Source: an uncultured bacterium
GTDB lineage: Bacteria; Patescibacteriota; Doudnabacteria; UBA920
Direction: 5' to 3'
Assembly: GCA_963749445.1 (NCBI GenBank)
Contig: CAVVMJ010000010.1
Location: forward strand, 254,021 to 318,020
Length of the DNA stretch: 64,000 nucleotides
Each line of letters begins with the position of its first letter. The first letter of the stretch is position 1. Made by a program: the position numbers and the translations under genes. Shown here piece by piece: positions 1-54,816 of this stretch. The notes below the pieces were generated by a model. That model did no database searches, was not told where the DNA came from, and saw only the letters and a program-made list of their open reading frames with translations.

Positions 1-157
1 ACGGCGGGCAAAGCCACTCACCTTAGTCGGCATCGCCCGACGAAGCTTCAGCGAAGTCGGGTCGGGGTGGAACACCCCGGAGCCCAAGCTCTCGAGAAAA
101 TATTCTTGATTATAAACCCATTAATTAAATCCAATTTAATCTTACCCAATCAATTTT

Positions 158-2640: not shown

Positions 2641-2763
2641 TAATTAAAAACTAAACTCTAAACACTAAATTCTAAACAAACTTTCAAAATATAAAATATA
2701 AACCGTTTAAAATTTTAGGGTTTGGATATTTAGGTTTTAGGGTTTAGTTTTTAGATTTTCTAT

Positions 2764-12932: not shown

Positions 12933-12957
12933 TAAAGGCGGTTTTTTTGATTGTAAT
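12933..12957. terminator. rho-independent terminator after zur
   Basis: cgccataaaggcggttttttt. Confidence 0.55.
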
Positions 12958-13039
12958 ATTTGTTGCATTTACGCGCACGTACGCATAAATGCAACAAATA
13001 TTTTTCAATAACCTATTGCCGACTTATCCTCTCAGGGAC

Positions 13040-13100
13040 TTGACAAATCCCAAAAATCGATTATAATTAGACAAACTAACAATTAGACAATCTAATTAAA
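13040..13100. promoter_or_regulatory. consensus sigma-70 promoter (TTGACA-N16-TATAAT) followed by the 17-bp palindrome AATTAGACAATCTAATT (and a second TAGACAA half-site). Probably the marR autoregulatory operator
   Basis: Read directly, upstream of the MarR-family gene. Confidence 0.55.
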
Positions 13101-13103
13101 TAT

Positions 13104-13523
13104 ATGGCTAAAAATTCCGCCACGCAAATTGTGGAATTGTTCTGGAGCATGTCCAAAATGTTCAAACAGCAACTGGACCATAGCAGCCCGGCATTTTACC
13201 TGACCATCGCCCAACTGGAAGCCTTACGATACGTTTCCGAGCAAAAAACGTTAACTATGAAGGAGCTGGCCGATTGCCTGGGCGTGGCTCCCCCTTCGGC
13301 CACGGCCATGGTGGACCATTTGGTCAAACTACATCTGTTAAACCGTCGCCACAGCCCCAAAGACCGGCGCGGCATTAATCTAAGATTGACCGATAAAGGC
13401 CGGTCAATTTACAAAAAAGCCATGGCCGAAAGATGCCGGTGGTTTACCAATTTGATCAAAAACCTCAGCGCCAAAGAGCGCGCCGAACTGGTGGAAATTT
13501 TAAAAAAGATGTCGCAGGCTTAA
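13104..13523 (+). CDS. MarR-family transcriptional regulator
   Basis: 139 aa. Winged-HTH MarR core (LTMKELADCLGVAPPSATAMVDHLVKLHLLNRRHSPKDRRGINLRLTDKG). Confidence 0.8.
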   Translation: MAKNSATQIVELFWSMSKMFKQQLDHSSPAFYLTIAQLEALRYVSEQKTLTMKELADCLGVAPPSATAMVDHLVKLHLLNRRHSPKDRRGINLRLTDKGRSIYKKAMAERCRWFTNLIKNLSAKERAELVEILKKMSQA

Positions 13524-13544
13524 AAATTATATACCTTATCTGTT

Positions 13545-13715
13545 CCATTCCGAGCGAGTCCGAATGCAGCTGAGGGCGAGTCGAGGAATCTGTTCTTCAT
13601 TTTACAGACCCCTCCGCTCCTACTCGCCCTTTCGACTTCGCTCAGGGCGACCCTGAGACTTGCCGAATGGGTCGGATGCACTCGTAGTCGGTCGGGGTGG
13701 CGAACAATTTATTTC
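13545..13715. repeat. GC-rich palindromic repeat, family A (copy A2, about 170 bp, internally dyad-symmetric)
   Basis: About 85% identical over about 78 nt to 42466..42548. Partial copies at 1..100 and inside holA at 44385..44448. Core ...GGCGACCCTGAG...GCCGAATGGGTCGGATGCACTCGT.GTCGGTCGGG.TGG. Confidence 0.7.
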
Positions 13716-13733: not shown

Positions 13734-15269
13734 ATGAACCTCAAATCCTTGGAAAAACACCATATTTTCAGCGGCGCGGCCATTTTGGTAATTGTCGTAA
13801 TCGCGATTATCATCAGTTCTAAACTCAAGCAGCAGCCGAGCTACAATTTTGTCAGCGTAAAAAGGCAAACTATTACCCAGGGCGCCACGGAAACCGGCAC
13901 GGTGAAAGCGGCGCAGGATTTGTCTTTGTCATTCCAAAAAAGCGGCAATATTGTCGCGGTGAATGTCAAAGCCGGCGACCGGGTTAAAAAAGGCCAGTTG
14001 CTGGCCGCCCTGGACAGCAAAGACGCCTCCGCCGCCGTAAGCCAGGCCACAGCCGCCCTGGAAGCGGCCCAGGCCAATTACCAGAAAATTTTAAACGGCG
14101 CCACGAGCGCGGACGTTAACGTCGCCCAGACCGCCTTGGATAACGCCAAAAAGAATTCGGACGAGACAACTAAACAGCAAAATCTGATGGTGGCCAACGC
14201 TCTATCCGCCTACTTAAACACCGTTAATCCGACCGGCATGAGCAACGGTTTGTCAGCGGTTCCTAAAACCGGCAATCTCGGCACAGCCGTAATCACCTTA
14301 AGCGGCAGCTACGCCGACACCGCGCCGGGGCAGTATGTTTTGACCGCTTACAGCACCGGCTCGGGTATGAAATTTACCGTCAACGGTTTGGAAACTGCGA
14401 GTGTGGACGTCAAAACCGCACCCGTGGCTCTGGGCACCAAAGGTTTGTTCATCCAGGTCAGCGGCACGCCCGCGGCCAACGACAGCTGGACGGTAAGCAT
14501 CCCCAACACGCAATCCCCTTCCTATATTCCCGATTACAACGCCTACAATGCCGCCCAAGAAGCACGCAGCCAGGCAATACTCAACGCGCAAAATGCCGTG
14601 GACGCGGCCCAGGCCGCCCTGGATTTAAAACAAACCGCGGCCCGGCCCGAAGACATCGCCTCGGCCAAAGCCCAAATGGACGCGGCCGCGGCCCAGCTGC
14701 AGCTGGCGCAAAATTCCTACAGCGACAATTCCATTGTCTCCCCGATTGACGGCATCGTGACCTCTGTGGACGCCAAAGTCGGCGAACTGGCCAGCCCGGG
14801 CAAACCCATACTATCGCTAATCTCCAGCCAAAAATTTCAAATCGAAACCTACGTTTCGCAGAACGATTTGGGAAAAATTAAAATCGGCGACAAAGCCGCG
14901 GTCACGCTTGACGCCTACGGCAGTGGCGTAAATTTTGACGCCTCGGTAATCAGCATTGATCCGGCCGCCACCGTGCAGAACAACATTGCCGGCTACAAAG
15001 TCACTTTGCAGTTCAACCAAAACGACGATCGGGTAAAAGAAGGACTAAACGCCAACATTGCCATTTTTGACGATAGCCGTGACAATGTCCCGGCAATTCC
15101 GGCCGGCGACATTATTACCAAAAATAACCAAAAATTCGTTATTAAAGATGTCGGCAACGGCAAAACCGCGCAGGTGCAGGTGCAAACCGGTTTGATTGGC
15201 ATGGACAATATGGCGGAAATTACCAACGGCCTGAATGACGGCGACCGCATCGTGAATTTGGGAAATTAA
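13734..15269 (+). CDS. HlyD-family membrane fusion protein (paralog of 158..1849)
   Basis: 511 aa. Same architecture and the same beta-rich insertion (ITLSGSYADTAPGQYVLTAYSTGSGMKFTVNG...) as the first MFP. Confidence 0.75.
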   Translation: MNLKSLEKHHIFSGAAILVIVVIAIIISSKLKQQPSYNFVSVKRQTITQGATETGTVKAAQDLSLSFQKSGNIVAVNVKAGDRVKKGQLLAALDSKDASAAVSQATAALEAAQANYQKILNGATSADVNVAQTALDNAKKNSDETTKQQNLMVANALSAYLNTVNPTGMSNGLSAVPKTGNLGTAVITLSGSYADTAPGQYVLTAYSTGSGMKFTVNGLETASVDVKTAPVALGTKGLFIQVSGTPAANDSWTVSIPNTQSPSYIPDYNAYNAAQEARSQAILNAQNAVDAAQAALDLKQTAARPEDIASAKAQMDAAAAQLQLAQNSYSDNSIVSPIDGIVTSVDAKVGELASPGKPILSLISSQKFQIETYVSQNDLGKIKIGDKAAVTLDAYGSGVNFDASVISIDPAATVQNNIAGYKVTLQFNQNDDRVKEGLNANIAIFDDSRDNVPAIPAGDIITKNNQKFVIKDVGNGKTAQVQVQTGLIGMDNMAEITNGLNDGDRIVNLGN

Positions 15270-22847: not shown

Positions 22848-23004
22848 ATTTTTACCTGGCACTTCTCGGCTTCGCTCGAAGCCTCCGGCAGCCACGGTAA
22901 GATGTTTGGCACAGCAAACATCAAACGCAACTCTTCACGATTCTGTGCGAGAGTTTTTCTTTTGTCCGACGTAGCTTTAGCGAAGTTGGATTGTTTGAAA
23001 ATAT

Positions 23005-25309: not shown

Positions 25310-26227
25310 ATGGCTTCGGAACCCACAATCTGTTTCGGCCAACAACCTGCCGGGTTTTTCCCCAAGCGGTTTTTGGCGGCCAAAATCAATACCGCAAAAA
25401 AATTGCGCGATGAAATCGGCGGCAAGGTCGTCTTTTTTTATCACGACAGCGATGCCGACTATCGAGAAACGATTACGATTATGCGCGACCGAACGACCGG
25501 CGCGGAAGTCCGCTTAAATTTTACCCAGGAAAACAAACTGCAAAAAAAATTCTCCCCGCTTTACTTAAAAAGAATCCCTGCGGGCTGGAAAGGAGAAATA
25601 TTAAAACAGCTTCCGCGCTTTGCCGACAAGCCGCTGATAGATATTTTTACATCCACCGATGAAAAAACCGCAGCCGATTTTTGCCTGGAAATGTACCGCA
25701 AAATGAGATTACTTGAAAGAATTGGAATTTTAAGATCATCTGACAAAAATTTTAGGCAGAAAGCCCAAGACCTTGCCATAGACTACTTTGCCGATATAGA
25801 ATACCAGGGCGAAGTTGTGCGGGCCAAGGTTGAATCATTGCAAACTCCAACCACCTCCCCCCGCTTCGCGGGGTACTCCTCCTTAAAAAAGGAGGAGAGG
25901 CTCCGCACTTCATCGGATATTTCGGATGACCGCGGAGCTTCCCCTCCTACCAAGGAGGGGTGGACGCCGGAGGCGGACGGGGTGGTTGGAGTTCTCCACG
26001 AAGGCGGCAATAAATTTATCCGCTTTCCGATAAACCAGCCCATCCAAAAATCGCAAAAATCCCCCAACCGAGACCAAAGGTTTGCCTGGATGCAGTCAGT
26101 GATAAATTGCACCCACTACATTTACGGCGAAGGCGAAAAGGAATACCTGGATATTTCTAAATTTCCCGATATCAAATTCATTGACCGCGAAAAAATCGAC
26201 GACCCAAGTTATGCATGGTTAGGTTAA
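25310..26227 (+). CDS. BshC-like protein (short form) carrying an in-frame GC-rich repeat insertion
   Basis: 305 aa. The N-terminal segment ICFGQQPAGFF ... VVFFYHDSDADYRE resembles the BshC motifs ITGQQAGL and VFWVAGEDHDFAE. The family-B repeat at 25850..25998 is embedded in-frame. It sits directly upstream of bshB- and bshA-like genes. Confidence 0.4.
   Translation: MASEPTICFGQQPAGFFPKRFLAAKINTAKKLRDEIGGKVVFFYHDSDADYRETITIMRDRTTGAEVRLNFTQENKLQKKFSPLYLKRIPAGWKGEILKQLPRFADKPLIDIFTSTDEKTAADFCLEMYRKMRLLERIGILRSSDKNFRQKAQDLAIDYFADIEYQGEVVRAKVESLQTPTTSPRFAGYSSLKKEERLRTSSDISDDRGASPPTKEGWTPEADGVVGVLHEGGNKFIRFPINQPIQKSQKSPNRDQRFAWMQSVINCTHYIYGEGEKEYLDISKFPDIKFIDREKIDDPSYAWLG
25850..25998. repeat. 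GC-rich palindromic repeat, family B (copy B1), inserted in-frame in a CDS
   Basis: Shares CAAGGAGGGGTGGACGCCG.AGGCGGACGG ... GGGGTGGTTGGA with 28455..28550, and AAGCCTTGGCGA.GG.GGGGGTG with 37985..38075. Has internal dyads (ctcctccttaaaaaaggaggag). Confidence 0.7.
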
Positions 26228-26310
26228 GGATTACGGATTAATACGGATATACAGATAACTGCAGTATCCGTAATCCGTATATCCGTATTAAATCAGTAAT
26301 CTATAACCCT

Positions 26311-31207: not shown

Positions 31208-31450
31208 ATATTGGCAATCAGGGAGGTAACTTAAACAATTATTGCCTAAGATAAGACCAAAATCAATAAAATCATTGACAAAATTATTTAGATGTGACAT
31301 AATGTATAAACTAATCAATCTATTAGACTCGTACTCATACTTATCTGAAATACTGAAATATTTCCGACCTTTGAGAAAACGGGTCGGAAATATTATTTAT
31401 GACACCACCCTTCGGCTCCGCTCAGGGTTTCGGTGTCTAAATTGTAAAAC

Positions 31451-33445: not shown

Positions 33446-34930
33446 CTACCTCGTCTGCCACTTCCGGTCGTCTTTGGCCATAAGCTCGTCCGACTGCTTG
33501 GGGCCGTTACGCCCAGGTTTGTACTTATAAAGCGGCAGGCTCCTAAACACCGGGCTGTCGGTAATGCTGTCCACGAATTTCCAGGCGGCCTCTATTTCGT
33601 CGCTACGGATAAATAAGCGCTGGTCGCCCTCCATAAAATCGAGCAGCAGCCGTTCGTAAGCCGACGGGATTTCGCTCTGGAAATTTTTTTGGTAGCCAAA
33701 CTCGTAATCGCCCTGGTGGAGCTGGATGCCAAAGCCGGGCACTTTGTTGTTGAGCCGCAAATGCACGGACTCGTCCGGCTGGATACGGAAAGTCAAAACA
33801 TTGGCCGCGCAGCCTTCAAACAGGCAGCGCGCCTGTTCGCGGAAATGGATGGAAATTTCCGTGAGTTTTTTGCTCAGGCGTTTGCCGGTGCGCAAATAAA
33901 ACGGCACGCCGGCCCAGCGCGGCAAATTTATGTAAGTTTTTAGGGCAAAAAAAGTTTCCGTGGCGCTTGTCCCGCCCTTGGGGCTTAGGCTTTTGATGTC
34001 TTTGGCATAACCTTAGTACTGGCCCAAAACCAGCCGCGCCGGCAACTTGTCCGGCCCCAGAATCTGGAGCGCGTTAAGAACGCGCAGTTTTTCGTTGCGG
34101 ATCATGTCCGCAGTCAGCTGGTACGGCTCTTCCATGGCAATCAACGCCAACATTTGCAAAATATGATTTTGTAAAAAATCTTTAATCGCCCCGGTCCGGT
34201 CGTAATACGCGGCGCGGCCGCCCACGCTGTCTTTTTCCAAAACCGAAATTTCCACGTGCTCAATGAAGCGATTATTCCACAGCGGCTCAAACAAAGAATT
34301 GGCAAAACGCACCACCATCAAATTCTGCACCGTTTCCTTGCCCGCGTAATGGTCAATGCGGTAAATTTGGTCTTCGGCAAAATACTTGAGCAACAGGGCG
34401 TTTAAATCCCGCGCGGATTTTAAATTAAAGCCAAAAGGTTTCTCCGCCAAAATCCGGACTTTGCGCCCGTGTGCCGCGCAAGCGGAAAGCAGGCCGGTCT
34501 GCTTTAAAATTCGGGCGATGGAAGCGAAAAACTGCGGGCTGGTTGCAAAATAATATAACCGGTTAAAACACTTATGCCGAGGCTGTTCTTTGGTTTCCAA
34601 AAGTTTAGTTAGCGGGCCAAAAGACGATACATCCGTAAAATCGCCCTGAAAATAAGTCAAATTGCGCAAAAAATGCTGGCGCTGTTTTTGGGTGATTTTT
34701 TTAATGACCGAAGATTTTTTAACAATGAAGTCAAGATATTTTTCGCTGGTCAGAGGCCTCCTGCCCACGCAAACCAGCTGGAAATCTGCCGGCAGCATGC
34801 CTTCCTGGTCCATATGAAGTAGCGCCGGCAGCAGGTAGTCGGAGGACAAATCGCCGGTGGCGCCAAAGATGGTCAAAACCGTGGGCGGCAACTTTTGAAT
34901 TAAATAATGGAACCCAAAGCCATGTTTCAT
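33446..34930 (-). pseudogene. zwf: glucose-6-phosphate dehydrogenase (zwf) interrupted by a single in-frame TAA at 34013..34015
   Basis: N-terminal ORF has GATGDL, EKPFG, RIDHYAGKE and ends ...LVLGQY*. The same frame continues as GYAKDIKSLSPKGGTSATETFFALKTYINLPRWAGVPFYLRTGKRL..., which is the G6PD C-domain. The two halves are in one frame. Confidence 0.8.
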
Positions 34931-36482: not shown

Positions 36483-36753
36483 TTTAGATGATACTGATAT
36501 ACGGATTAATACGGATGATACCGATAATACTAATACGGTTAAATATCCGTATTATCGGTATTATCAGTATGCATCAGTATATCGGTATCTCATGTATATT
36601 ATAGCAAATTATTGACATTATTGTAAATTAATGCTATATTTTAAGCTACTTCCCGAAAAGTAGCGCGGGATTTTTTAGTGAACTAATTAAAAACAATTTC
36701 GAATTGCGTATTACGAATTCTTAATCCGTAATGCGTAATCCGTAATACTCAAA

Positions 36754-38706: not shown

Positions 38707-38751
38707 TTTCAATGTGTCATTCCGGCCTCCGAGCCGGAATCTATCTTTAAG

Positions 38752-42249: not shown

Positions 42250-42459
42250 TCATCCGATAATATTCTGCACGCGGCCGACTTGGCCGCTTTGTAGGCGGAC
42301 TTTGATGCCGTGGGGGTGGAATTGGGAGTTGGTTAAAATGTCCGCCACCAAGCCGCGTGTGAGTTTGCCGGTTCTTTGATCTTCCTTAAGCACAATGTCC
42401 ACTTCCAGTCCGGGTGATATGTTTTCGCGATTTTGTCCGTCCATAATATATCCCTCCAC
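42250..42459 (-). CDS. YwbE-family (DUF2196) small protein
   Basis: GQNRENISPGLEVDIVLKEDQRTGKLTRGLVADILTNSQFHPHGIKVRLQSGQVGRVQNI matches the YwbE consensus along its full length. Confidence 0.8.
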   Translation of the reverse strand: MEGYIMDGQNRENISPGLEVDIVLKEDQRTGKLTRGLVADILTNSQFHPHGIKVRLQSGQVGRVQNIIG

Positions 42460-42461
42460 TC

Positions 42462-42548
42462 CTCCTCGCCCCTCGATTTCACTCGGGGCGACCCTGAGCG
42501 TAAGCCGAATGGGTCGGATGCACTCGTCGTCGGTCGGGATGGAATACC
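42462..42548. repeat. GC-rich palindromic repeat, family A (copy A3)
   Basis: About 85% identical to the right half of 13545..13715. Confidence 0.7.
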
Positions 42549-43799: not shown

Positions 43800-43875
43800 T
43801 TTCTGTCATCCCGGAATTTTTCACGCAGGCGATTATCATCAGTCGTGAAAAATATCCGGAATGACACTGAAATGC
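43800..43875. repeat. GTCATCCCGGAAT...ATTCCGGAATGAC hairpin element (family C)
   Basis: gtcatcccggaatttttcacg ... cgtgaaaaatatccggaatgac inverted repeat. Related copies at 54655..54720 and 38712..38740. A variant (gtcattgcgagcgg) at 17755..17785. Confidence 0.55.
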
Positions 43876-43876
43876 T

Positions 43877-44941
43877 TTAAATAAACAGCTGCGCCAAAAT
43901 CAAGTCCAACAAAACCCGCGGCGGGGTGGAGGTGGTTTTAAGCTCCTTGTCCAGCGCCGCCAATTTATTGAGCGTCTGCTTGACTATATCCGGCTTAAAC
44001 CGGCCAGCGATTTTTTTGAGCACATAAAGCCGGCCGCTTTTCCAAGCCGTAAGGCTTAAAATTTTGTCATCCGAGATTTTGCGGGCCAGCAAATCCGAAA
44101 GCGCGTAAATATTGCGGAACTGTTCGCTGAGCAGAGCGTTTAGCTGGATAATTTGCGCCTTAGTGTCGCCCTCGCTTAAAAACTTACCGATAAGCTCCAA
44201 AGCCGCCTGTTTGTTATGGTCGCCTATGGCATTGATAATTTTAAACACATCCACTTCCCCGTTTTCGGAAACCAGATTGTTAACGTCCGCTTCTTTGATT
44301 TCCTGACCGTTTGCGTATGCGATTAATTTGCGGATTTCGGAATCCGCCTGCCACAGACTGTAAATTTCTTCGCCCGCGATAAGTTTGCCGCCCCCTCGAC
44401 TTTGCTCGGGGCGGCCCTGAGCCTTGCCGAATGGGCCGCCCGCCCGGATTTCTTTGGCGTCATCCCGCCCCAATTTTTTGGCCAAAAACGCTGCCGCGCC
44501 CTTGCTTATTGTGCTGTTTAACTCTTTGGCGCGGCTGGTAATCCATTTATCCAAATCCGCGCCGTGCGGCAAATCAAATTGTTTAACTTCCGCGCCCTTG
44601 TGCGCCAGCCACTGCTTATTATTGGACAGGCGCTTGTCTACTTTATCCTCCTCAAACACAATAACATTTTTGCCGACCACTAGCTTATCGGCAATTTCCT
44701 GATTATAATCATATCCGGCCAAAAGATTTTGTAGAACCACGACTTTGGTTTTGGAAAACAAATCCTGGCCAAAAAGCCCTGACAGTTGCGGCCGCTCCTC
44801 TGCCGAAACAAAAAATTCCGCCTCGGCTTTATGCTTTTTGGCCAAAGAGGAAATCTGGCTGTCTTTAGAAAAATTGTCCGGTCCGAGAAAGAAAAACAAC
44901 ATAAATTTTGGTGGGTTGGGTGGGGATCGGACCCACGACAC
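43877..44941 (-). CDS. holA: DNA polymerase III subunit delta (HolA), carrying an in-frame family-A repeat insertion
   Basis: The N-domain (LFFFLGPDNF...KVVVLQN) and C-domain (VFKIINAIGDHNKQAALELIGKFLSEGDTKAQIIQLNALLSEQFRNI) match HolA. A segment of about 25 aa (DAKEIRAGGPFGKAQGRPEQSRGGG) is encoded by the repeat at 44385..44448. The likely start is the internal MLFFFLG. Confidence 0.65.
   Translation of the reverse strand: MSWVRSPPNPPKFMLFFFLGPDNFSKDSQISSLAKKHKAEAEFFVSAEERPQLSGLFGQDLFSKTKVVVLQNLLAGYDYNQEIADKLVVGKNVIVFEEDKVDKRLSNNKQWLAHKGAEVKQFDLPHGADLDKWITSRAKELNSTISKGAAAFLAKKLGRDDAKEIRAGGPFGKAQGRPEQSRGGGKLIAGEEIYSLWQADSEIRKLIAYANGQEIKEADVNNLVSENGEVDVFKIINAIGDHNKQAALELIGKFLSEGDTKAQIIQLNALLSEQFRNIYALSDLLARKISDDKILSLTAWKSGRLYVLKKIAGRFKPDIVKQTLNKLAALDKELKTTSTPPRVLLDLILAQLFI
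44385..44448. repeat. GC-rich palindromic repeat, family A (partial copy A4), in-frame within holA
   Basis: ctcgactttgctcggggcggccctgagccttgccgaatgggcc is about 80% identical to the core of A2/A3. Confidence 0.6.
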
Positions 44942-52359: not shown

Positions 52360-52493
52360 ATATTTTATTTTTTGTTTTAATGATAAATCTATAACCTTTC
52401 AGAACTTGCCCTGCGGGCCAAATGGTGGAAATGACCCGCAGCGATTGCGGGTCATTATCGTCCCTGCCTTTCGGCTACGCTCAAAACTGCGGC

Positions 52494-53807
52494 CTAGCGG
52501 CCTTGCCAGGTAAAAATATAATACAAGGTCTTTAGGATAATCTCCAAGTCAAACAGTACGCTGCGGTGCTTAATGTAATACAAATCGTACTGCAGCTTGA
52601 GCCTGGTTTCCTCCAGACTGGCGGCGTAGACGTTGTTGATTTGCGCCCAGCCGGTCAGTCCCGGCTTGACCAAATGGCGCTCGTCGTAAAACGGGATATG
52701 CTGTTTCAGTTCTTCAACGATGTGCGGCTGTTCCGGCCTCGGTCCGACCAAACTCATATTGCCAAGCAGCAAATTAATAAACTGCGGCCACTCGTCAACG
52801 CGCGACATGCGCAAAAAGCGCCCAACTTTGGTAATGCGCGGGTCATTAGCGCTTGTCCAGGTATTGGTCGCTCCCCACGACTGCATAGTGCGGTATTTAT
52901 AAACCTTGAAGACTTTGTTGTTTTTGCCTACGCGCTCTTGGACAAAAAAAATCGCGCCGCGCGAAGTGAACTTAATCAGCAAAGCAATCACGGGAAAAGT
53001 CACGGCAAAAACTACGCCGGCAGTCAAGCCGACAACCAAATCGATTATTCTTTTTAATAAATTGTAAAACCGTTTCTCTCGGTAATCGATGTTTTCCAAA
53101 AACCACAGCTCGCTGATCTGGGACAAATAGACGCGGCGCAGCAAGCTTTCGTAAAAATCCTTGTAATTGTAAAAATCCACTCCCGACCGCCTGAGCTCGT
53201 AAAATTTCTTCAGCACCTCCGGCCGCTCGCCTAAATTGTCGGGCAAGACAATGGCCGCGCCTTTGGAAAGCGCCGCCTCGGGCAGGCTCTGGCCGCTGAT
53301 GTGCCCGAGCACCCTAAAACCCAAATAGTTGTGGTGCGCGATTTCCTGCTCCAGCTCGCGCAGTTCGTTGTTAAAAGAAAACAAATACACGCCTTGGGAA
53401 ATCCGGTTCTTGATTAAATACTTAATGAGCAGGTGCCAGCCCAAAATCAACACGAAAGAGACGGCCGCGTCAATCAACAAAAACCTTCTGGGCGTGAAAA
53501 TCAGCAACGGCTGGAAGTAGAAAAAAATGATGGCCGCCAAAACGTTAAACATCATGGCGGAAACCAGGCTGAACACCAGACTGGTGTAACGACGCAGGGA
53601 AGAAAAATCAAACAAGCCGTGGATAAAAAAAATCACGGCCCAGACCAAATAAATCAAGGAAAACAGCCGCAGATGGTTTAGCCAGACCAAAGGCGAAAGG
53701 CCGCCGCCGTAGCGGATTTGAACCGTCAACCACAAACTTAAATAGAGCAGCAGGACGTCGGGCAGCAGGATGATGAGAAAATTTTTGGGCTTATTTACGC
53801 TGGCCAT
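52494..53807 (-). CDS. polyprenyl glycosylphosphotransferase (bacterial sugar transferase, WbaP/CpsE-like), initiating enzyme of exopolysaccharide synthesis
   Basis: 437 aa. N-terminal TMS, and a C-terminal Bac_transf domain (VGKNNKVFKVYKYRTM ... DEWPQFINLLLGNMSLVGPRPE). Confidence 0.85.
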   Translation of the reverse strand: MASVNKPKNFLIILLPDVLLLYLSLWLTVQIRYGGGLSPLVWLNHLRLFSLIYLVWAVIFFIHGLFDFSSLRRYTSLVFSLVSAMMFNVLAAIIFFYFQPLLIFTPRRFLLIDAAVSFVLILGWHLLIKYLIKNRISQGVYLFSFNNELRELEQEIAHHNYLGFRVLGHISGQSLPEAALSKGAAIVLPDNLGERPEVLKKFYELRRSGVDFYNYKDFYESLLRRVYLSQISELWFLENIDYREKRFYNLLKRIIDLVVGLTAGVVFAVTFPVIALLIKFTSRGAIFFVQERVGKNNKVFKVYKYRTMQSWGATNTWTSANDPRITKVGRFLRMSRVDEWPQFINLLLGNMSLVGPRPEQPHIVEELKQHIPFYDERHLVKPGLTGWAQINNVYAASLEETRLKLQYDLYYIKHRSVLFDLEIILKTLYYIFTWQGR

Positions 53808-54654: not shown

Positions 54655-54720
54655 CTGTCATTCCGGATATTTTTGCCTGCTTCCGGGACATCATCGGCAG
54701 GCAAAAATATCCGGAATCTA
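54655..54720. repeat. GTCATTCCGGATATTTTTGCCTGC...GCAGGCAAAAATATCCGGAAT hairpin element (family C)
   Basis: Perfect long inverted repeat, visible directly. Confidence 0.6.
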
Positions 54721-54816
54721 GGATTGTACTATTCCTTGTTTCTGGATCCCGCATATTTTTTGGACTGATGAATACCCTTTAGCCAAAAAATTGTGGGATG
54801 ACACTAAGTGGATTGA

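What the first reader, a model, noticed from the sequence alone, without database searches (positions are those of the whole stretch)
13545..13715. 170-bp GC-rich palindromic intergenic element (family A) with dispersed copies
The marR-MFP spacer holds a long internally dyad-symmetric GC-rich element. Its right half is about 85% identical to the ywbE-MFS spacer element (42462-42548). Partial copies sit at the window start (1-100) and within holA. In the 50% GC background these are conspicuous GC islands. Function is unknown; it could be structural, regulatory, or a selfish element.
Basis: seen in the sequence. Interest (0 to 1): 0.55.

Follow-up and report, generated by a model that had tools for sequence, protein, structure and literature searches.

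The report
Mosaic palindromic repeat element in CPR
The 166-bp GC-rich palindrome between marR and the efflux gene is one copy of a family of hairpin-forming repeat elements that was inserted only in this lineage of an ultra-small (CPR) bacterium, including in frame inside a replication gene. It resembles the REP, dRS3 and Rickettsia palindromic elements of other bacteria.

Summary
Window 13541-13706 is an imperfect 166-bp palindrome that folds into a Y shape (MFE -72.7 kcal/mol, z = -4.1 on both strands). Its right half is 86% identical to 42452-42542. Its 45-nt core recurs at 44389-44438 inside holA. The copy claimed at the window start shares only a ~25-nt end module.

All three copies are absent from the orthologous sites of related Patescibacteria. 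The holA copy is a 48-nt in-frame insert missing from 19 homologs. In a related metagenome contig, three such elements sit in frame inside one YfhO-family gene.

The element is a mosaic. Its ends carry degenerate TGTC-type tags like those of CGTC-tagged REPs (Neisseria dRS3/NTS, Rickettsia RPE-4/-6). Its centre is an inverted dimer of a 21-nt unit, CCCTGAGCGNAGCCGAA(T)GGG. That unit occurs in hairpin loops in MAGs of more than ten phyla, and once next to a GIY-YIG (Ssn-like) gene.

The window holds about ten elements of this kind and no transposase among 30 ORFs scanned.

Verdict: a non-autonomous palindromic insertion element, a new member of a known kind, not described for CPR in the literature searched. 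The mobilising enzyme is unknown. Any regulatory effect on the marR-MFP operon is probably secondary.

The parts
13541..13706 (.). Element A, the full-length composite palindromic element in the marR-MFP intercistronic spacer
   Evidence: Fold z = -4.1 on both strands. Y-shaped helix map. Absent from the same spacer in L127 (21 nt) and L129/L130 (71 nt, AT-rich). Same architecture in L123 620-832 and L025 2640-2780.
13541..13572 (.). Left terminal module of A: degenerate TGTC-type tag (TGTTC) followed by CATTCCGA-GCGAG-TCCGAATG. It is the 5' strand of outer stem P1.
   Evidence: Pairs with 13673-13706. The homologous ends in L123 read GTGTCATTCCGAGCGAG and in L025 GCGCCATCCTGAG / GCGTCATCCTGAG.
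13573..13630 (.). Arm P2: AGGGCGAGTCGAGGAATCTGT / AT-rich loop / ACAGACCCCTCCGCTCCTACTCGCCCT
   Evidence: Helices listed. Equivalent AT-loop arms are present in L123 and L025.
13626..13672 (.). Arm P3: inverted dimer of the 21-nt unit, 13627-13647 (-) CCCTGAGCGAAGTCGAAAGGG and 13651-13671 (+) CCCTGAGACTTGCCGAATGGG, separated by CGA
   Evidence: Pattern and profile hits. The hairpin alone has z = -3.3.
13673..13706 (.). Right terminal module of A: TCGGATGCACTCGTAGTCGGTCGGGGTGGCGAACA. It is the 3' strand of P1.
   Evidence: The module GGTCGGATGCAC is shared with B, L122, L123, L124 and L025.
42449..42547 (.). Element B, a half element (right half of the A type) that fills the MFS-ywbE (DUF2196) spacer. 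Units at 42468-42488 (-) and 42492-42513 (+).
   Evidence: 86% identical to A and 92.5% over 80 nt to L123. The orthologous spacer L124 8202-8297 is AT-rich and empty. A short-read contig of the same genome, L121, ends inside it. It does not fold significantly on its own.
44387..44440 (.). Element C: a 42-nt unit dimer (44393-44434) flanked by GCCGCC on both sides (44387-44392 and 44435-44440). This is a 48-nt in-frame insertion in holA that encodes GGPFGKAQGRPEQSRG.
   Evidence: Absent from 19 homologs, including one 77% identical. DNA comparison of empty and filled sites. The insert lies in the only long pLDDT < 50 segment of the model, residues 149-179. Hairpin z = -2.35.
31402..31438 (-). 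Single 21-nt unit (CCCTGAGCGGAGCCGAAGGG on the - strand) enclosed by a 6-bp stem gacacc/ggtgtc, 15 nt upstream of an ORF start
   Evidence: Fold z = -3.85.
1..80 (.). Weak partial relative. It shares the right-end module gtcgggtcggggtggaacac (55-78) with A and B, and a unit-like cttcagcgaagtcggg.
   Evidence: Fold z = -2.7. Similarity is not significant by BLAST.

Best explanation
What it is: element A is a non-autonomous, mosaic palindromic insertion element of the REP / dRS3-NTS / RPE kind. It is built from three parts: two inverted terminal modules carrying a degenerate TGTC-type tag, one arm with an AT-rich loop, and one arm that is an inverted dimer of a 21-nt unit.

Shown:
- It belongs to a dispersed population of such hairpin elements in this CPR (Patescibacteria, near Doudnabacteria) genome.
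- Its copies arrived at their present sites after divergence from relatives that are 62-77% identical in the neighbouring proteins.
- The core dimer can sit in frame inside genes without breaking them.

Inferred:
- The elements spread as single-stranded DNA hairpins handled in trans by an enzyme that recognises tag plus stem. The best candidate class is a small GIY-YIG Ssn-type ssDNA nuclease. An HUH/RAYT-like enzyme is less likely.
- Surviving copies are those in AT-rich spacers or in surface loops of proteins.

Consequence at this site: element A is transcribed inside the marR-MFP operon and can form a -73 kcal/mol RNA structure between the two cistrons. This may change the relative stability or translation of the flanking genes, as a by-product and not the reason the element exists.
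For: Repeat family beyond chance.

Presence/absence at all three sites:
- holA has a 16-aa insert absent in 19 homologs. The empty site reads AAATTC|GGCGGC|AAGGTT; the filled site reads ...|GGCGGC|42 nt|GGCGGC|....
- The MFS-ywbE spacer is empty in L124.
- The marR-MFP spacer is 21 nt in L127 and 71 nt in L129/L130, against 210 nt here.

Same architecture and strong folds in other CPR contigs: L123 z = -6.3, L025 z = -5.6.

In-frame insertion is a family habit. The L123 YfhO-family ORF runs through three elements. An alignment of 13 homologs shows three hot spots with presence/absence and differing variants.

Link to a known kind:
- The ends read (T/C)GTCAT(T/C)C..., as in CGTC-tagged REPs, dRS3 and RPE-4/-6 (PMC3733652) and in NTS/SRM (PMC11893778).
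- The tag GTCATYCCS occurs 8 times in the window against 1.3 +/- 1.2 in shuffles.
- Of 120 unit hits in other phyla, 35 carry the tag in the right orientation within 45 nt, against 2-3% at random places.
- In L062 a GIY-YIG gene (PF01541, E = 4e-13) is flanked on both sides by TGTC hairpins, and one of them carries the 21-nt unit.

Other support:
- Orientation relative to transcription differs among copies (A in sense, B and C antisense), as expected for a DNA-level element.
- Repeats break assemblies: L121 ends inside B.
- Operon context: a perfect promoter lies at 13040-13067, and there is no promoter or terminator call between marR and MFP.
Against: - No mobilising enzyme was found. None of 30 small or medium ORFs in the window is a Y1/HUH, GIY-YIG or other transposase, and the rest of the genome could not be searched.
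- The published SRM search pattern has 0 matches in the window.
- The tags of A itself are degenerate (TGTTC).
- Copy number is known only for 64 kb.
- Target duplication is seen at one site only (GGCGGC in holA) and could be alignment ambiguity. No duplication is visible at A, or at the three YfhO sites at 80% protein identity.
- The Ssn nuclease is shown in the literature to cut ssDNA, not to transpose anything.
- Patchy presence at the same YfhO sites could also reflect old insertions followed by precise losses.
Confidence: 0.72

Rival explanations
1. It is primarily a cis-regulatory RNA structure of the marR-MFP efflux operon. Under this reading it is an intercistronic stem-loop that protects the marR message, attenuates read-through, or tunes MFP translation, and it is kept for that function.
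For: - It lies inside the operon transcript: perfect promoter at 13040-13067 and no internal promoter.
- Its predicted structure is very stable.
- REPs in other bacteria act as mRNA stabilisers or terminators, by general knowledge and PMC3733652.
- On the coding strand of ywbE, the end of B reads GGAGGAGGAGTGGAGGG 7 nt before the ATG at 42444, which looks like a Shine-Dalgarno sequence.
Against: - It is absent from the same operon in the closest relatives, L127 and L129/L130.
- The same sequence occurs antisense to transcription at B and C, and inside coding sequence.
- Both strands fold equally well.
- There is no terminator-like tail.
- There is no Rfam match even at E <= 10.
Confidence: 0.12
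2. It is a classical MITE: an internally deleted insertion sequence with terminal inverted repeats, moved by a DDE transposase that creates target-site duplications.
For: - Imperfect terminal inverted repeats: TGTTCCATTCCGA... / ...TCGGGGTGGCGAACA in A, and GTGTCATTCCGA / TCGGGATGACAC in L123.
- A possible 6-bp duplication, GGCGGC, flanks the holA insert.
Against: - The holA insert is only the 42-nt inner hairpin and has no terminal repeats.
- No duplication is visible at A or at the YfhO sites.
- No transposase was found in the window, and none is enriched near 120 related loci.
- There is no match in plasmid, phage or viral-contig collections.
- The ends match the tag of REP-type hairpins, for which no DDE partner is known.
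Confidence: 0.08
3. It is a REPIN: two inverted REPs mobilised by a RAYT, a REP-associated tyrosine (HUH) transposase.
For: - The P3 arm is an inverted pair of 21-nt units, as in a REPIN.
- A has cGTAGt at 13685-13690.
- Some units in Thermomicrobiales MAGs sit in GTAG-tagged stems, L019 and L024.
Against: - B has CGTC where A has GTAG, so the tetranucleotide is not conserved.
- The consistent tag in the family is (C/T)GTCAT, not GTAG.
- No Y1 transposase was found in the window.
Confidence: 0.05
4. It is chance similarity between GC-rich, low-complexity spacers.
For: A 17-nt pattern is expected roughly 140 times by chance in 596 Gb (my arithmetic). A few hits in the genome scan are plainly coding coincidences, namely L007 and L066.
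Against: - E = 2e-21 between A and B.
- 0.00 matches expected in the window against 3 found.
- In the genome scan the 'free' 4-nt gap is CGAA, CGCA or CGTA in 62 of 122 hits, and the 6 nt upstream are AGCCTG in 37 of 122.
Confidence: 0.01

Closest known systems
CGTC-tagged REPs (Di Nocera, De Gregorio and Rocco 2013, PMC3733652), which include Neisseria dRS3 and Rickettsia RPE-4/RPE-6
   Same: - Short GC-rich hairpins with a terminal CGTC/TGTC tag followed by a stem that starts with AT (GTCATTCC...GGAAT).
- Organised as inverted dimers and mosaics.
- Often nested inside other palindromes.
- Mostly between unidirectional or convergent genes.
- Sometimes inside genes, notably DNA replication and repair genes.
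- No dedicated transposase known.
- The window holds textbook examples at 38713-38742, 43803-43868 and 54655-54719.
   Different: - Element A is a 166-bp three-armed composite, not a 25-30-nt hairpin.
- Its own tags are degenerate (TGTTC).
- Its centre is a dimer of a 21-nt unit that the paper's text does not mention.
- The host is a CPR bacterium, a group not covered by that survey.
NTS / Ssn-related motifs (SRM) and the GIY-YIG ssDNA nuclease SsnA (Chenal et al. 2025, PMC11893778)
   Same: - NTS is CGTCATTCCCGCGMAVGCGGGAATCYRG, with the same tag and the same ATTCC/GGAAT stem as the simple hairpins here.
- SRM-rich genomes are mostly symbionts with reduced genomes, as CPR bacteria are.
- In L062 a GIY-YIG gene is flanked on both sides by TGTC hairpins, the NTS-ssnA-NTS layout, and one of them carries the 21-nt unit.
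   Different: - The published SRM pattern finds nothing in the window.
- No GIY-YIG gene was found among the 30 window ORFs scanned.
- NTS are rarely intragenic (2%), whereas these elements are often in frame in genes.
- SsnA is known to restrict transforming ssDNA, not to mobilise repeats.
Rickettsia palindromic elements (RPE)
   Same: - Palindromic repeats inserted in frame into protein-coding genes, including essential ones.
- They add a peptide segment without destroying the protein.
- They show presence/absence among related species.
- They occur in a small-genome, host-dependent bacterium.
   Different: - No sequence relationship to RPE-1 was tested.
- The host phylum differs.
- Here the same gene site carries different variants in different lineages.
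BIMEs of enterobacteria and NIMEs of Neisseria (mosaic elements made of REP units)
   Same: Modular mosaics of palindromic units and linker motifs that vary from copy to copy. This comparison rests on general knowledge and on PMC3733652.
   Different: The unit sequences differ. No IHF or gyrase-binding modules are known here.
REPINs and RAYTs (Bertels and Rainey 2011, PMC3116915)
   Same: An inverted pair of short palindromic units acts as the apparent mobile unit. Populations of diverged copies exist within a genome.
   Different: There is no conserved GTAG head and no RAYT was seen.

Membership tests
CGTC-tagged REP superfamily (PMC3733652) | Unpaired terminal tag CGTC (also TGTC or CCTC) at one end of the hairpin | tested here: inconclusive
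   Clear in neighbouring window elements (TGTC at 38715, 43804, 54656) and in the full-length homologs L123 (GTGTCATTCCGAG) and L025 (GCGTCATCCTGAG). In element A itself both ends read TGTTC, a degenerate form.
CGTC-tagged REP superfamily (PMC3733652) | Stem of 8-9 bp starting with A-T pairs, and a loop of 4-5 nt | tested here: inconclusive
   The left end of A can form CATTCCGA-GCGAG-TCCGAATG (8 bp with one C-C mismatch, 5-nt loop). In the minimum-energy fold, however, this strand pairs with the far end of the element instead. The feature is met exactly at 38713-38742: ATTCCGGC-ctccga-GCCGGAAT.
CGTC-tagged REP superfamily (PMC3733652) | Many copies dispersed in the genome, mostly extragenic, often as inverted dimers | tested here: inconclusive
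   About ten elements in 64 kb, covering 1.2% of the window. The whole-genome count could not be tested.
Ssn-related motifs / NTS (PMC11893778) | Match to the published degenerate pattern HGTCWYN(0-2)YYVSBRHN(0-5)WNVSBRGN(0-2)RNCYNB | tested here: not met
   0 matches on both strands of the window, with 0.12 expected. The simple hairpin at 38715 fails by one stem position.
Ssn-related motifs / NTS (PMC11893778) | A single-domain GIY-YIG (cd10448) gene in the same genome, typically flanked by the motif | not testable with these tools
   No PF01541 hit among the 30 window ORFs scanned. The rest of the 372-kb contig and of the genome is not available. The architecture was seen once in an unrelated MAG, L062.
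Ssn-related motifs / NTS (PMC11893778) | Strand-specific cleavage of single-stranded DNA next to the motif by the cognate nuclease | not testable with these tools
   Needs biochemistry.
Rickettsia palindromic elements (works-like comparison) | Palindromic repeat inserted in frame in ORFs, absent from orthologs, tolerated in a surface region | tested here: met
   holA carries a 16-aa insert absent in 19 homologs, located in a pLDDT < 50 linker. The YfhO-family gene in L123 carries three in-frame elements at polymorphic sites.
Rickettsia palindromic elements (membership) | Sequence homology to RPE-1 to RPE-10 consensus | not tested
The only link is through the CGTC-tag class, to which RPE-4 and RPE-6 are assigned in PMC3733652.
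REPIN/RAYT | Conserved GTAG (GTRG) head on each REP, and a RAYT gene flanked by REPs | tested here: not met
   GTAG in A (13686-13689) is CGTC in B. No Y1 transposase among the 30 ORFs scanned.
MITE | Terminal inverted repeats plus target-site duplication, and a parent IS with the same ends | tested here: inconclusive
   Terminal inverted repeats are present. A duplication is seen only as GGCGGC at holA and not at the other sites. No parent IS was found in the window, in 130 loci, or in the plasmid, phage or viral collections.
Rfam RNA families | Covariance-model match | tested here: not met
   Only tRNAs reach gathering score in the window and in 18 related loci. Nothing credible appears at E <= 10 on the element.

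The most novel reading that the evidence does not exclude
The 21-27-nt module (A)GCCTG-CCCTGAGCGNAGCCGAA(T)GGG may be the recognition or processing module of one ancient trans-acting system that is still uncharacterised. Plausibly this system is a branch of the GIY-YIG Ssn ssDNA nucleases, and it copies hairpin units into the loops of other hairpins, into spacers and into genes.

The module is nearly invariant in hairpin loops of MAGs from more than ten bacterial phyla and one Asgard archaeon MAG. It is absent from phage, plasmid and viral-contig collections.

Under this reading, CPR bacteria use it, or suffer it, as a generator of in-frame peptide insertions in essential and envelope proteins.
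Probability: 0.2. Interest if true: 0.75.

Novelty: new member of a known kind. Interest (0 to 1): 0.5.

Why it matters
CPR/Patescibacteria genomes are thought of as streamlined and poor in repeats. This window shows about one hairpin element per 6-7 kb.

These elements have entered an essential replication gene in frame. In a relative, they have entered one envelope-protein gene three times. That makes them a source of protein-length variation, assembly breaks and spurious ORFs in CPR MAGs.

The link to dRS3/NTS-type hairpins points to a concrete candidate partner, the Ssn GIY-YIG nucleases, that can be looked for in complete CPR genomes.

The conservation of the 21-nt unit across phyla is unexplained and could be tested with existing enzymes.

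Tried and rejected
- Rfam, at gathering score on the window and on 18 loci, and at E <= 10 on the element: only tRNAs, so no known RNA family.
- Searches of PLSDB plasmids and INPHARED phages, and an exact-pattern scan of IMG/VR: no match, so there is no sign of a plasmid or phage vector.
- Clustering of 3,109 ORFs from 120 loci that carry the unit: the only recurrent families are ABC ATPases, response regulators and the like. No transposase is enriched.
- Pfam scan of 30 window ORFs: no transposase, HUH or GIY-YIG protein.
- The published SRM regular expression: 0 matches.
- Target-site duplications at the three YfhO sites and at A: not resolvable at this divergence.
- Literature searches with exact element sequences and for CPR plus palindromic repeats: no description found in the held library.
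- A protein-coding reading of the short ORFs across A (53 aa and 30 aa): rejected, because they are the translation of a palindrome and have no support.
- The family-specific 20-mer in JGI metagenomes gave only two contigs, so a large alignment for covariation analysis of the full element could not be built.
- The look-up of encoding contigs on the MFP protein first returned nothing, although the same protein was later found as P0121.

Full report
**1. Observation**

The spacer between a MarR-family gene (13104-13523, +) and an HlyD/MFP gene (13734-15269, +) is 210 nt long. It contains a GC-rich block at 13541-13706.
- GC content is 58% over the block. The window mean is 48.3% and the AT-rich flanks are 30-38%.
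- The 181-nt stretch folds to -72.7 kcal/mol on the + strand and -72.6 on the - strand. The z-score is -4.1 on both, and no shuffle out of 200 folds as well.
- The helix map shows a three-way junction. Outer stem P1 is 13541-13572 with 13673-13706. Arm P2 is 13573-13630 and has an AT-rich loop. Arm P3 is 13626-13672.

The similarity claims mostly hold.
- 13610-13700 is 85.9% identical to 42452-42542 (E = 2e-21). 13625-13674 is 86% identical to 44389-44438.
- The copy claimed at the window start is only a ~25-nt shared end module and is not significant by BLAST.
- The core shared by A, B and C, CCCTGAG-N4-5-GCCGAATGGG, occurs three times in the window against 0.00 expected.

**2. Anatomy**

P3 is an inverted pair of a 21-nt unit: 13627-13647 on the - strand and 13651-13671 on the + strand, 3 nt apart. 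Copies B and C have the same pair.

A single unit also sits at 31408-31427, closed by a 6-bp stem. A degenerate one lies at 52470-52483.

A profile built only from units of unrelated genomes recovers five units in the window at E <= 0.02.

The ends of A are imperfect inverted repeats: TGTTCCATTCCGA... and ...TCGGGGTGGCGAACA.

Two full-length homologs were found elsewhere.
- L123 620-832, a JGI metagenome contig, reads GTGTCATTCCGAGCGAG ... GGGTCGGGATGACAC.
- L025 2640-2780, a Doudnabacteria MAG, reads GCGCCATCCTGAG ... CTCAGGATGACGC.
- Both have the same three-armed fold, with z = -6.3 and -5.6.
- B is closer to the L123 copy (92.5% over 80 nt) than to A. The subfamilies are therefore older than this genome, or they move between genomes.

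**3. Organism and context**

Homologs of the flanking proteins are named Patescibacteria or Candidatus Doudnabacteria by their sources. The window comes from a 372,259-bp contig.

A perfect TTGACA-16-TATAAT promoter lies at 13040-13067, upstream of marR. No promoter or terminator is called between marR and MFP. Element A is therefore most likely transcribed inside the operon.

B fills the spacer between an MFS gene and a DUF2196 (ywbE-like) gene, both on the - strand. C lies inside the DNA polymerase III delta subunit gene, also on the - strand. The same element orientation is thus sense to transcription at A and antisense at B and C.

**4. Presence and absence**

- C: the delta subunit has a 16-residue insert, GGPFGKAQGRPEQSRG, that is missing from all 19 aligned homologs. 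One of those homologs is 77% identical.
  - At the DNA level, relatives read AAATTC-GGCGGC-AAGGTT. The window reads CGGGCG-GGCGGC-[42 nt]-GGCGGC-AAACTT.
  - This is a 48-nt in-frame insertion with a possible 6-bp duplication.
  - An AlphaFold model places the insert in the only long low-confidence segment, residues 149-179, between two helices.
- B: the orthologous MFS-DUF2196 spacer in L124 is 96 nt, AT-rich and empty.
- A: the marR-MFP spacer is 21 nt in L127 (MFP 73% identical) and 71 nt, AT-rich, in L129/L130 (65% identical).
- A short-read contig of the same genome, L121, stops inside B, as repeats make assemblies do.

**5. In-frame insertion is a habit of the family**

In L123 a single ORF runs in frame through three elements, at 383-480, 620-832 and 1556-1652. 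The full protein, P0241, is 902 aa, and several of its homologs carry Pfam YfhO.

An alignment of 13 homologs shows three insertion hot spots. Each is occupied in some lineages, by different variants, and empty in five to eight others.

The inserts begin with the translation of TGTGTCATTCCGAGC (CVIPS...) and end with that of CGGGATGACAC (RDDT). Target duplications could not be resolved at 80% protein identity.

**6. The wider superfamily in the window**

Simple hairpins with a TGTC tag lie at four further sites:
- 38713-38742 (TGTC-ATTCCGGC-ctccga-GCCGGAAT-CTA);
- 43803-43868, with tags at both ends, z = -5.4;
- 54655-54719, z = -8.8;
- 54743-54806.

The tag GTCATYCCS occurs 8 times against 1.3 +/- 1.2 in shuffles. 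In total about ten elements cover 1.2% of the window.

**7. Distribution of the unit**

By my arithmetic, chance alone would give roughly 140 hits, and a few hits are clearly coding coincidences. Most hits are not chance.
- The free 4-nt gap is CGAA, CGCA or CGTA in 62 of 122 hits.
- The six bases upstream are AGCCTG in 37 of 122 and AGTTTA in 13.
- Perfect flanking stems of 7 bp or more occur in 22% of hits, against 4% in mismatched controls.
- 35 of 120 hits carry YGTCAT or ATGACR in the right orientation within 45 nt, against 2-3% at random places.

The hosts span Planctomycetota, Acidobacteriota, Chloroflexota, Verrucomicrobiota, Bacteroidota, Nitrospirota, Patescibacteria and others, plus one Heimdallarchaeota MAG. 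The unit is usually the loop of a hairpin whose stem differs from genome to genome.

In CPR loci, and in a few others, the unit is paired with its own inverted copy, as in the window. It was not found in plasmids, phages or 2.9 million viral contigs.

**8. Comparison with what is known**

Di Nocera et al. (PMC3733652) define CGTC-tagged REPs as follows.
- Tag CGTC, TGTC or CCTC; a stem of 8-9 bp starting with AT; a loop of 4-5 nt; a short tail; mostly inverted dimers.
- They are often nested in other palindromes.
- They are sometimes intragenic, especially in replication and repair genes.
- No dedicated transposase is known.
- The class includes Neisseria dRS3 and Rickettsia RPE-4/-6.

Chenal et al. 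(PMC11893778) extend dRS3 to the oriented NTS, CGTCATTCCCGCGMAVGCGGGAATCYRG, and to 'Ssn-related motifs' (SRM).
- They show that a small GIY-YIG protein, SsnA, binds the motif and cuts single-stranded DNA next to it.
- The SsnA gene is itself flanked by the motifs.
- Motif-rich genomes are mostly symbionts.

The simple hairpins in the window fit the first definition. Element A fits it only in degenerate form. The published SRM pattern has no match in the window, and no GIY-YIG or HUH gene is among the 30 window ORFs scanned.

One link to Ssn was found. In L062 (Dehalococcoidia) a GIY-YIG gene (PF01541, E = 4e-13) is flanked on both sides by TGTC hairpins, and one of them contains the 21-nt unit.

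I therefore file the element as working like, and probably related to, CGTC-tagged REP/SRM mosaics with RPE-like behaviour. I do not file it as a proven SRM.

**9. Mechanism**

Shown:
- a dispersed family;
- lineage-specific insertion;
- in-frame tolerance;
- hairpin architecture conserved in relatives.

Inferred:
- movement as single-stranded hairpins with a trans-acting tag-recognising enzyme, with an Ssn-type GIY-YIG nuclease as the leading candidate;
- selection leaving copies in spacers and surface loops;
- side effects on the operon transcript.

The rival readings (dedicated RNA regulator, classical MITE, REPIN/RAYT, chance) are weighed in their own sections of this report.

**10. Verdict**

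The finding is real and the 'selfish repeat' reading is supported. It is a new member of a known kind. I found no description of it for CPR bacteria in the held literature.

The most interesting loose end is the near-invariant 21-27-nt unit shared across phyla.

Noticed in passing
window 38713-38742: Textbook TGTC-tagged REP hairpin (aatGTGTCATTCCGGCctccgaGCCGGAATCTA) directly after a stop codon.
   Followed up: partly
window 43803-43868: Long hairpin with TGTC tags at both ends (TGTCATCCCGGAATTTTTCACG...CGTGAAAAATATCCGGAATGACA) in the holA-MFS spacer. Fold z = -5.4.
   Followed up: partly
window 54655-54719 and 54743-54806: Two adjacent long hairpins of the same TGTC/ATTCCGGA-AAAAAT type in opposite orientation. 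The first has a 22-bp perfect stem, z = -8.8.
   Followed up: partly
window 52404-52495: Degenerate composite element in a spacer between two minus-strand genes. It combines a hairpin (ATGACCCGCA-gcgat-TGCGGGTCAT) with a decayed 21-nt unit (cctttcggctacgctcaaaa).
   Followed up: partly
window 44457-44470: The conserved GRDDA motif of holA is encoded by GGGCGGGATGACGCC. The + strand therefore reads GCGTCATCCCGCCC, a natural tag-plus-stem half site about 20 nt from insert C. The Ssn nuclease is reported to cut upstream of such sites. This may be coincidence.
   Followed up: no
L123 1-2544 (protein P0241): A YfhO-family membrane protein gene carries three palindromic elements in frame. Homologs show three polymorphic insertion hot spots with different element variants.
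   Followed up: yes
L062 6980-7360: In a Dehalococcoidia chromosome, a small GIY-YIG gene is flanked on both sides by TGTCATTCTGAGG...GAAGAATCC hairpins. The downstream one encloses the unit CCCTGAGCATGGCCGAAGGG.
   Followed up: partly
L029 (Heimdallarchaeota MAG CP070695.1) 1758-1778: The unit, with its AGCCTG prefix and nearby GTCATCCTAAGCG and TGTCATTGCGAGCG tags, occurs in an Asgard archaeon MAG. This is either a true archaeal copy or bacterial contamination of the bin.
   Followed up: no
window 34013-34015 (minus strand), inside 33446-34930: The glucose-6-phosphate dehydrogenase gene is split by an in-frame TAA (…LGQY*GYAKD…). This could be a pseudogene, a sequencing error or recoding.
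   Followed up: no
window about 2110-2146: An ABC-transporter ATPase gene is broken into ORFs 1913-2146 and 2119-2640 at a run of T. This could be a frameshift, an assembly error or a pseudogene.
   Followed up: no
window 2645-2753, 26222-26308, 36490-36589, 1860-1917: AT-rich long palindromes of other, unrelated kinds. Two of them share cggattaatacggat-type words.
   Followed up: no
window 12955-13002 and 13040-13067: A 48-nt palindrome (tgttgcatttacgcgcacgtacgcataaatgcaaca) lies between a Fur-like gene and a perfect sigma-70 promoter for marR. It is a possible operator.
   Followed up: no
window 42445-42465 (minus strand): The end of element B reads GGAGGAGGAGTGGAGGG on the ywbE coding strand, 7 nt before the ATG at 42444. 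The inserted element may supply the ribosome-binding site, or even the alternative GTG start at 42459.
   Followed up: no
window 22966-22986 versus 37-57: A 21-nt word, ccgacgWagcttYagcgaagtYgg, occurs twice (90% identical), the second time just upstream of a tRNA gene. It is possibly another unit variant.
   Followed up: no
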